Below are positions 35,529-35,951 of a stretch of 64,000 bases of DNA, piece after piece (the first letter of the stretch is position 1; each line of letters opens with the position of its first letter). The notes under the pieces are model-generated. The model ran no database searches, was not told the origin of the DNA, and worked only from the letters and a program-made list of their open reading frames with translations. Origin of the DNA: Octopus vulgaris (Eukaryota). Location of the stretch: assembly GCA_951406725.2 (NCBI GenBank), contig OX597825.1, forward strand, positions 21,824,001-21,888,000. Direction: 5' to 3'. Position numbers and translations under genes: made by a program.

Positions 35529-35612
<84 letters not shown>

Positions 35613-35691
35613 ATTGCAGCGTGGAAGGTGTTTATAAGCCATTTAAGAAACATATAAACGGTTAGATTCACTTCAATATTTAAATTTAATT

Positions 35692-35738
35692 TATCAAAAT
35701 ATTTTCGTCGCTTTGAGACCGCGATCTGTTCACTGACA
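35692..35738 (-). ncRNA. Hammerhead-like motif with variant core GUGAACA
   Basis: Minus strand: UGUCA-GUGAACA-G-AUCGC-ggucucaaa-GCGAC-GAAA-AUAU-UU-UGAUA. Confidence 0.6.
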
Positions 35739-35765
35739 CAACGTCACGAAGATGCAGCACGAAGT

Positions 35766-35815
35766 TTTGTCAGTGAACAGGTCGCATCTCAAAGCGACGA
35801 AAGTATTTTGACAAA
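35766..35815 (+). ncRNA. Hammerhead-like motif with variant core GUGAACA (G3:C8)
   Basis: Stem I UUUGUCA(35766-72)/UGACAAA(35809-15); GUGAACA(35773-79); G; stem II GUCGC(35781-85)/GCGAC(35794-98); GAAA(35799-802); GUAU; UU. Confidence 0.68.
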
Positions 35816-35915
35816 TTAAAGTTAAATGTTGAAGTGAATCTAACGGTTTTTGTGTGTTTCTTAAATGGCTTAAAAACACCTCAGATCAAATCACACGCTA
35901 TGCTAGTACATCTCC

Positions 35916-35951
<36 letters not shown>

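What the first reader, a model, noticed from the sequence alone, without database searches (positions are those of the whole stretch)
35607..35918. Candidate natural hammerhead ribozyme with a swapped G3:C8 core pair (GUGAACA), present twice in a palindromic TA-targeted element
Seen: both arms fold into minimal type I hammerhead topology (stem I up to 7 bp, 5-bp stem II preceded by one extra purine, GAAA, palindromic AAAAUAUUUU stem III, UH triplet), but the CUGANGA box reads GUGAACA in both, although the arms differ elsewhere. Established: positions 3 and 8 form a tertiary Watson-Crick pair in the active hammerhead, and the engineered C3G/G8C double swap rescues activity. Inference: a family of PLE-associated elements uses a compensated G3:C8 core, which CUGANGA-based motif searches would miss. 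I cannot confirm from here whether it is already described.
Basis: partly seen in the sequence, partly recalled or inferred. Interest (0 to 1): 0.88.

Follow-up and report, generated by a model that had tools for sequence, protein, structure and literature searches.

The report
Penelope end repeat, flipped hammerhead pair
This palindrome is two back-to-back end pieces of an abundant Penelope-type jumping gene, carrying a hammerhead-shaped RNA motif whose key core pair is flipped (G3:C8) in thousands of copies; relatives use other pairings there, so the fold is likely under selection, but self-cutting is untested.

Summary
The motif is real. The right arm has a 7-bp stem I, GUGAACA, an extra G, a 5-bp stem II, GAAA and UU, with the predicted cut after 35808. 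The left arm is decayed at 10.1. The arms are two copies of one ~208-nt unit, so their agreement is not independent evidence. The unit is the pLTR of a young Penelope-like retrotransposon (RT plus C-terminal GIY-YIG; whole copy L398). About 7,900 core matches exist, and 91 of the first 100 are G3:C8. An older family also has G3:C8; sister families have C3:G8; four metagenome relatives show C:G, U:A, U:A and a weak A:U. This supports selection on the 3:8 pair. Against a need for cleavage: most copies span the cut site, and a thriving sister family has A9C. I found no natural G3:C8 in print (10 searches; four key papers unreadable). The scan noted this family six times before in this genome, and similar swaps in two other genomes. 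Verdict: new variant of a known kind; cleavage untested.

The parts
35535..35606 (.). (TA)n target microsatellite, left part
35607..35749 (-). Left arm: inverted, slightly 5'-truncated pLTR copy ending at the short 3' end (no tail)
   Evidence: matches reference positions 20-152
35690..35740 (-). Decayed hammerhead motif of the left arm: G3 35733, C8 35728, A at 10.1 (35725), predicted cut after 35697
   Evidence: fails the descriptor
35607..35642 (-). First codons of the PLE ORF in the left arm (ATG at 35642-35640)
   Evidence: homology to the ORF start of whole element L398
35750..35918 (+). Right arm: pLTR copy from the common 5' end (AGATGC, likely the transcription start) to the long 3' end (with tail); 37-nt internal deletion near 35881
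35766..35815 (+). Minimal type I hammerhead motif with G3:C8 core, extra G after A9, predicted cut after 35808
35773..35779 (+). Core box GUGAACA (G3 35773, C8 35778)
35865..35918 (+). Remnant of the ORF start (ATG 35865, stop at codon 3 in this copy) and the one-sided tail
35917..35949 (.). (TA)n target microsatellite, right part

Best explanation
The 312-bp palindrome is a head-to-head pair of terminal-repeat (pLTR) copies of a Penelope-like retrotransposon, and each copy carries that element's minimal hammerhead motif with G3:C8 in place of C3:G8, which is likely a slow, dimer- or protein-assisted self-cleaving RNA. Shown: unit structure, ORF link, family state, sister states. Inferred: a capped transcript starts 23 nt upstream of G3; the element's RT starts at one of two sites inside the first codons of the ORF and copies back to the 5' end; both nicked strands of a (TA)n target are extended, giving one short and one long arm. 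Inferred: the swap arose once in the ancestor of families A and B and was kept because the 3:8 tertiary pair is needed. Two hammerheads 4.26 kb apart in a read-through RNA would pair through the palindromic stem III and cut after U17 in a minority of RNAs, while uncut RNA is the usual template. These two copies are inert remnants.
For: Whole element pLTR-ORF-pLTR, 4,261-bp unit, both pLTRs intact with GUGAACA (L398). ORFs of 839 and 1,025 aa with RT motifs and a GIY-YIG end. 40 of 40 head-to-head insertions among 86 distinct loci have one long and one short end, as described for PLE tails (PMC8557442, PMC11167929). 25 of 43 copies ending at AG|ATGC carry a G where the template has C, read as a copied cap. 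Older family B keeps G3:C8 (24 of 29) with N7 changed to C, stem I outer pair U-A to G-C and a shorter palindromic stem III. Sister families keep C3:G8 (60 C:G, 10 G:C, 30 other among the first 100 of 215). In 38 aligned motifs the 3:8 columns give 13 CG, 13 GC, 3 wobble, 8 unpaired, and stem II is 93.5% paired. 4 of 20 metagenome relatives have a hammerhead-shaped 3' motif (0.01 expected per shuffled set) and all 4 pair at 3:8. The C3G/G8C double mutant partly restores a PLE hammerhead, with protein help (PMC11167929).
Against: No cleavage data. G3:C8 is one evolutionary event, so the copy counts are not independent. Stem II covariation was partly built in by my search patterns. Of 116 unbiased arms only 2 start at the cut site, both explicable by microhomology or deletion. 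Genome-wide, about 46 of 97 matches start there, against about 24 of 100 four bases upstream and about 4 of the first 100 of 437 two bases downstream (sorted by eye), at most a 2-3-fold excess. A sister family with intact 1,312-aa ORFs has A9C in 85 of the first 100 of 4,406 matches. G3-G8 makes up 42 of the first 100 of 386 non-C8 copies. In PMC11167929 hammerhead mutants did not affect insertion in vitro. The monomer folds with G3 paired to U17.
Confidence: 0.62

Rival explanations
1. The motif is a hammerhead relic that no longer cuts. It is kept as a protein-binding or promoter-proximal structure, or simply drifts, and the swap arose through tolerated broken intermediates because cleavage is dispensable for transposition.
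For: A9C in the most intact sister family. G3-G8 copies are over-represented (42 versus about 16 G3-A8 of 100), though not one clade. Most cDNAs span the cut site. Mutants do not affect insertion in vitro and no RNA ends were seen at the cut in Anolis (PMC11167929). Naiads thrive without canonical hammerheads (PMC8557442).
Against: Drift does not explain Watson-Crick pairing at 3:8 in families A, B, C, D and in 4 of 4 outside motifs. U4, G5, A6, G10.1:C11.1, GAAA and U16.1 are kept between elements only about 55% identical in protein. The 3:8 pair belongs to the active fold (PMC3088659).
Confidence: 0.3
2. The motif is an efficient ribozyme that defines the 5' end of a template RNA or releases circular monomers, as in retrozymes.
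For: About 46 genome copies begin exactly at the cut site, four loci as perfect fold-backs with both arms starting there.
Against: These are about 1% of the family. Common 5' ends lie 23 nt upstream of the core with a cap-like G. The unit does not begin or end at the cut site. No tandem arrays of the short unit were seen in the fetched loci.
Confidence: 0.06
3. The element is a DNA-transposon MITE whose arms are terminal inverted repeats, and the hammerhead look is chance.
For: This copy is a near-perfect palindrome in a TA target.
Against: 46 of 86 loci are not head-to-head pairs; partner arms are variably 5'-truncated; ends are asymmetric in 40 of 40 pairs; the unit flanks an RT-GIY-YIG ORF as direct repeats.
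Confidence: 0.01

Closest known systems
Minimal type I hammerheads in pLTRs of metazoan Penelope-like elements (Cervera and de la Pena 2014, PMC4209133)
   Same: Location in the pLTR; extra nucleotide between 9 and 10.1; G10.1:C11.1; tiny palindromic helix III suited to dimers; mostly solo or opposite-strand copies.
   Different: Core reads GUGAACA or GUGACCA. The paper reports CUGANGA and, in Schistosoma Cercyon, U3-A8, not G3-C8. The extra nucleotide here is G, where the published consensus is H.
Natural U3-A8 core covariation (Perreault et al. 2011, PMC3088659)
   Same: Compensatory change of the 3:8 tertiary pair in nature.
   Different: U3-A8 is two transitions; G3:C8 needs two transversions. 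G3-C8 is not named as natural in the section read.
Poseidon_Ac hammerhead and its engineered C3G/G8C mutant (Frangieh et al. 2024, PMC11167929)
   Same: PLE pLTR hammerhead near the ORF start; two internal RT start sites that define the tail; the double swap partly active; uncut RNA is the main template.
   Different: There the swap is a laboratory mutant and the ORF starts inside the hammerhead. Here it is the natural state of thousands of copies and the ORF starts about 57 nt after the cut site.
Neptune/Nematis-type EN+ PLEs (as described in Craig et al. 2021, PMC8557442)
   Same: RT plus C-terminal GIY-YIG with CCHH and a CX2-5CxxC linker; inverted 5'-truncated copy; one-sided tail; (TA)n targets.
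   Different: DKS in place of the DKG motif; tail about 58 nt rather than 30-40; clade not placed by a tree with named references.

Membership tests
EN+ Penelope-like element (pLTR) | RT and C-terminal GIY-YIG in one ORF between direct pLTRs | tested here: met
   L398 pLTR-ORF-pLTR (this copy frameshifted); L142 839 aa, L146 1,025 aa open; Pfam GIY-YIG E 1.2e-4 on the 338-aa piece. Pfam gave no hit on the 839-aa protein, so RT rests on motifs and on homologues at 41-48%.
EN+ Penelope-like element (pLTR) | Inverted 5'-truncated copy and one-sided tail | tested here: met
   40 of 40 head-to-head pairs have one long and one short end
Neptune/Nematis clade | CX2-5CxxC linker and CCHH in the endonuclease; (TA)n bias | tested here: met
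   Read from the translations; 84 of 137 arm ends run into TA repeats
Neptune/Nematis clade | RT phylogeny with named reference elements | not tested
   The tree held only unnamed relatives
Minimal type I hammerhead of PLEs | Stems I and II, G10.1:C11.1, extra nucleotide after A9, GAAA, palindromic helix III, UH | tested here: met
   Right arm and most family copies; left arm fails at 10.1
Minimal type I hammerhead of PLEs | CUGANGA box (C3:G8) | tested here: not met
   G3:C8 in 91 of the first 100 of 7,948 matches; the pair is kept, the letters are not
Hammerhead ribozyme | Self-cleavage 3' of H17 | not testable with these tools
   Indirect genomic test inconclusive
Rfam hammerhead families | Covariance-model match | tested here: not met
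   No hammerhead hit at E<=10
Non-LTR retrozyme | Tandem short monomers delimited by the ribozyme cut site | tested here: not met
   Unit ends are the 5' start and two RT start sites, not the cut site; only fetched loci were inspected for arrays
MITE (DNA transposon) | Fixed terminal inverted repeats, no RT link | tested here: not met

The most novel reading that the evidence does not exclude
This clade of Penelope-like elements carries a relaxed-core, active hammerhead subclass that uses all four Watson-Crick pairs at 3:8 (C:G, G:C, U:A, A:U) and tolerates C at position 9 when a G follows it (seen in the young sister family and in metagenome locus L263), probably because the element's own protein chaperones the fold. 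Hammerhead censuses built on CUGANGA would then miss more than 10,000 motifs in this genome alone.
Probability: 0.25. Interest if true: 0.72.

Novelty: new variant of a known kind. Interest (0 to 1): 0.48.

Why it matters
It would be a natural, high-copy instance of a core swap that I found only as a laboratory rescue mutant, giving phylogenetic support for the 3:8 tertiary pair. It also offers a matched natural series (C3:G8, G3:C8, U3:A8, A9C) in closely related retroelements for testing the open question of whether PLE minimal hammerheads are selected for cleavage. Practically, descriptor and Rfam searches miss these motifs. The insertion itself is an ordinary PLE remnant.

Tried and rejected
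Rfam scan: only microsatellite-driven hits. MITE reading rejected. A 3' splice-site reading of the fixed 5' end (branch-point-like motif and pyrimidines before AG|ATGC) was considered; sequence beyond the extra G varies among copies, so a copied cap fits better, untested. G3-G8 as a distinct subfamily: no diagnostic columns, scattered on the tree, 13 copies. Other abundant G3:C8 families outside A and B: 324 matches versus 327 for the reversed control. Abundant A3:U8 families with a purine after A9: 248 versus 430 control. Expression: no RNA holder listed; all laid runs were contigs and show no ends; they show only that the family with the GUGAACA core occurs in runs of coded organisms A-E. 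No ORF was linked to families B or D. One search used a mis-registered stem II and was replaced. The tool for contigs encoding a given protein was closed. Papers not held: PMC5785218 (Lunse et al. 2017), PMC1986816, PMC3334697, PMC2151028; Brill et al. 2024 was seen only as a reference. File 1 of the PMC4209133 supplement was not searched, and figure content was not seen.

Full report
Observation. The right arm carries a complete minimal type I hammerhead layout: stem I 35766-35772/35809-35815, GUGAACA at 35773-35779, an extra G, a 5-bp stem II, GAAA, a 4-nt helix III insert and UU, with the predicted cut after 35808. My descriptor left positions 3, 7 and 8 free; it found this one site in the window and none in 640 kb of shuffled sequence. 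Rfam saw no hammerhead. The left arm is the same unit on the minus strand but has A at 10.1 and a weaker stem I. The right arm has G at 15.2, a stop in codon 3 and a 37-nt deletion. The arms are about 88% alike, so their agreement shows descent, not selection.

The family. The genome has 2.8 Gb in 227 contigs. A 25-mer from the unit's 3' half has 6,375 exact matches. A core pattern with 3, 7 and 8 free has 7,948 matches against 17 for the reversed control; 91 of the 100 listed are G3:C8. Copies lie about 5% from their majority (125 copies). Among 116 arms chosen only by the 3' 25-mer, about half start within a few bases of AGATGC, 23 nt upstream of G3, and the 3' ends fall in two groups about 58 nt apart. 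Of 90 loci (86 distinct), 40 are head-to-head pairs, and all 40 have one long and one short end; 84 of 137 arm ends run into TA repeats. Some of these loci are duplicates carried inside other repeats, so they are not all independent. Of 43 copies that end at AG|ATGC, 25 have G before it where the template has C; I read this as a copied cap and a transcription start (inference).

The parent element. Upstream extensions led to a 3' UTR and a GIY-YIG domain. Open frames of 839 and 1,025 aa hold RT motifs, a CX3CxxC linker and CCHH. L398 is a whole pLTR-ORF-pLTR unit of 4,261 bp with an intact GUGAACA motif in both repeats, and the ORF starts inside the pLTR and runs through the tail. This matches the architecture in Craig et al. 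(PMC8557442, passages and a supplement search) and the two internal RT start sites of Frangieh et al. (PMC11167929, parts 1-2 of 4). Placement in Neptune/Nematis is by motif only.

Is the swap compensatory? Related pLTR families share the scaffold and a homologous ORF start. With 3, 7 and 8 free, a short-loop pattern gave 215 matches; the 100 listed were 60 C:G, 10 G:C and 30 other, mostly single-transition decay (counted by hand). Clustering 216 motifs with positions 3 and 8 masked gave family A (96 of 110 G:C), an older family B (24 of 29 G:C, N7 mostly C), and families C, C2 and D (27 of 35, 4 of 6 and 4 of 6 C:G); A and B group together, with weak support at the root. Several loci were fetched with patterns that fixed the state, so these ratios describe the clusters and do not sample the genome. 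From A to B the outer stem I pair changes U-A to G-C and helix III shrinks from AAUAUU to AAUU, still palindromic. On 38 aligned motifs the 3:8 columns give 13 CG, 13 GC, 3 wobble and 8 unpaired. The protein of family C is about 55% identical to A and is its sister (100/100; 12 rows, one left out). Of 20 metagenome relatives, 4 have a hammerhead-shaped motif behind the ORF, against 0.01 per shuffled set, and all 4 pair at 3:8: C:G (L264), U:A (L266), U:A with C9 (L263) and a weak A:U (L273, 3-bp stem I). By parsimony C3:G8 is ancestral and G3:C8 arose once. One event is thin alone; the pairing across lineages is what supports selection.

Evidence against a need for cleavage. The youngest sister family, with near-identical 1,312-aa ORFs, reads CUGAUGC: C9 in 85, A9 in 11 and U9 in 4 of the first 100 of 4,406 matches. 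A9 is a conserved core position; that A9C is strongly damaging is recalled, not checked. In family A, 42 of the first 100 of 386 non-C8 copies are G3-G8, more than decay predicts, though they form no clade. Only 2 of 116 arms start at the cut site. Genome-wide, about 46 of 97 matches start exactly there, four loci as perfect fold-backs, against about 24 of 100 at -4 and about 4 of the first 100 of 437 at +2. Restricted to C or G flanks the first two are 19 and 15 (sorted by eye). That is a faint hint at most. Frangieh et al. likewise found uncut RNA to be the main template and cleavage only with protein present; Cervera and de la Pena found low activity, only for dimer-like constructs (PMC4209133, parts 1-2 of 4).

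Mechanism. Shown: anatomy, ORF link, states at 3:8. Inferred: capped start, internal priming on both target strands, dimer formation between the two pLTR motifs through the palindromic helix III (duplex of the 10-mer only -3.8 kcal/mol), slow or protein-assisted cutting. The monomer's best fold pairs G3 with U17. Kalweit and Hammann mention that G3-C8 works better with G17 than with C17 (PMC3884650, passages; their data not shown); A and B both have U17, which would weaken such a trap (inference). My odds: element identity 0.97, 3:8 pair under selection 0.85, measurable cleavage 0.6.

Novelty. Natural U3-A8 is published (PMC3088659 section 8; PMC4209133). G3-C8 appears as an engineered mutant (PMC11167929, PMC3884650). 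Ten full-text searches and passages of PMC6765202, PMC11014351, PMC12192606 and bioRxiv 10.64898/2026.07.22.740005 showed no natural G3:C8. Four relevant papers could not be read, above all Lunse et al. 2017, and figures were not seen, so 'unreported' is provisional. Earlier scan notes describe this family on six other pieces of this genome and similar swaps in two other genomes; they call the host an octopus, which I did not test. Two notes prompted my checks of other pairings and of cut-site ends. Verdict: new variant of a known kind, interest 0.48.

Noticed in passing
L392-L403 (e.g. L393:2156 and 6751; G000:C22:44546500 onward): A young sister PLE with intact 1,312-aa ORFs has a hammerhead core CUGAUGC (A9C) in 85 of the first 100 of 4,406 matches; older copies have A9. 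Metagenome relative L263 also has C9 followed by G.
   Followed up: partly
Family A genome-wide (e.g. L282, L297, L298, L139-L141): C8-to-G copies are over-represented (42 of 100 non-C8 copies versus about 16 C8-to-A) without forming one clade; unexplained.
   Followed up: partly
L114 minus strand 1506, L168 minus 1944, L193 plus 2667 (strand-wise positions): Hammerhead-shaped motifs with a U3:A8 core from other repeats in the same genome.
   Followed up: no
L023:1135, L122, L245, L151, L189, L216, L071: Several other canonical CUGANGA minimal hammerhead families lie in the flanks of fetched loci; L103 has a different GIY-YIG ORF next to this family's 3' UTR.
   Followed up: no
window 35750 and L398:2700-2722: The fixed 5' end sits behind a branch-point-like motif and a pyrimidine run ending in AG, so it also looks like a 3' splice site; the extra G favours a capped start.
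   Followed up: partly
one search matches, genome-wide: A subfamily of A carries a 2-nt CA insertion just after stem I (TGACACAAA), and another has G1.2 changed to C, which breaks one stem I pair.
   Followed up: no
L042, L348, L351, L352, L367, L381, L388, L389: The same head-to-head junction recurs at many loci, so one insertion is being carried inside another mobile repeat.
   Followed up: no
L281:975: A metagenome relative has GUGAAGA (G3-G8) with a 6-bp stem II but a poor stem I behind its ORF fragment.
   Followed up: no
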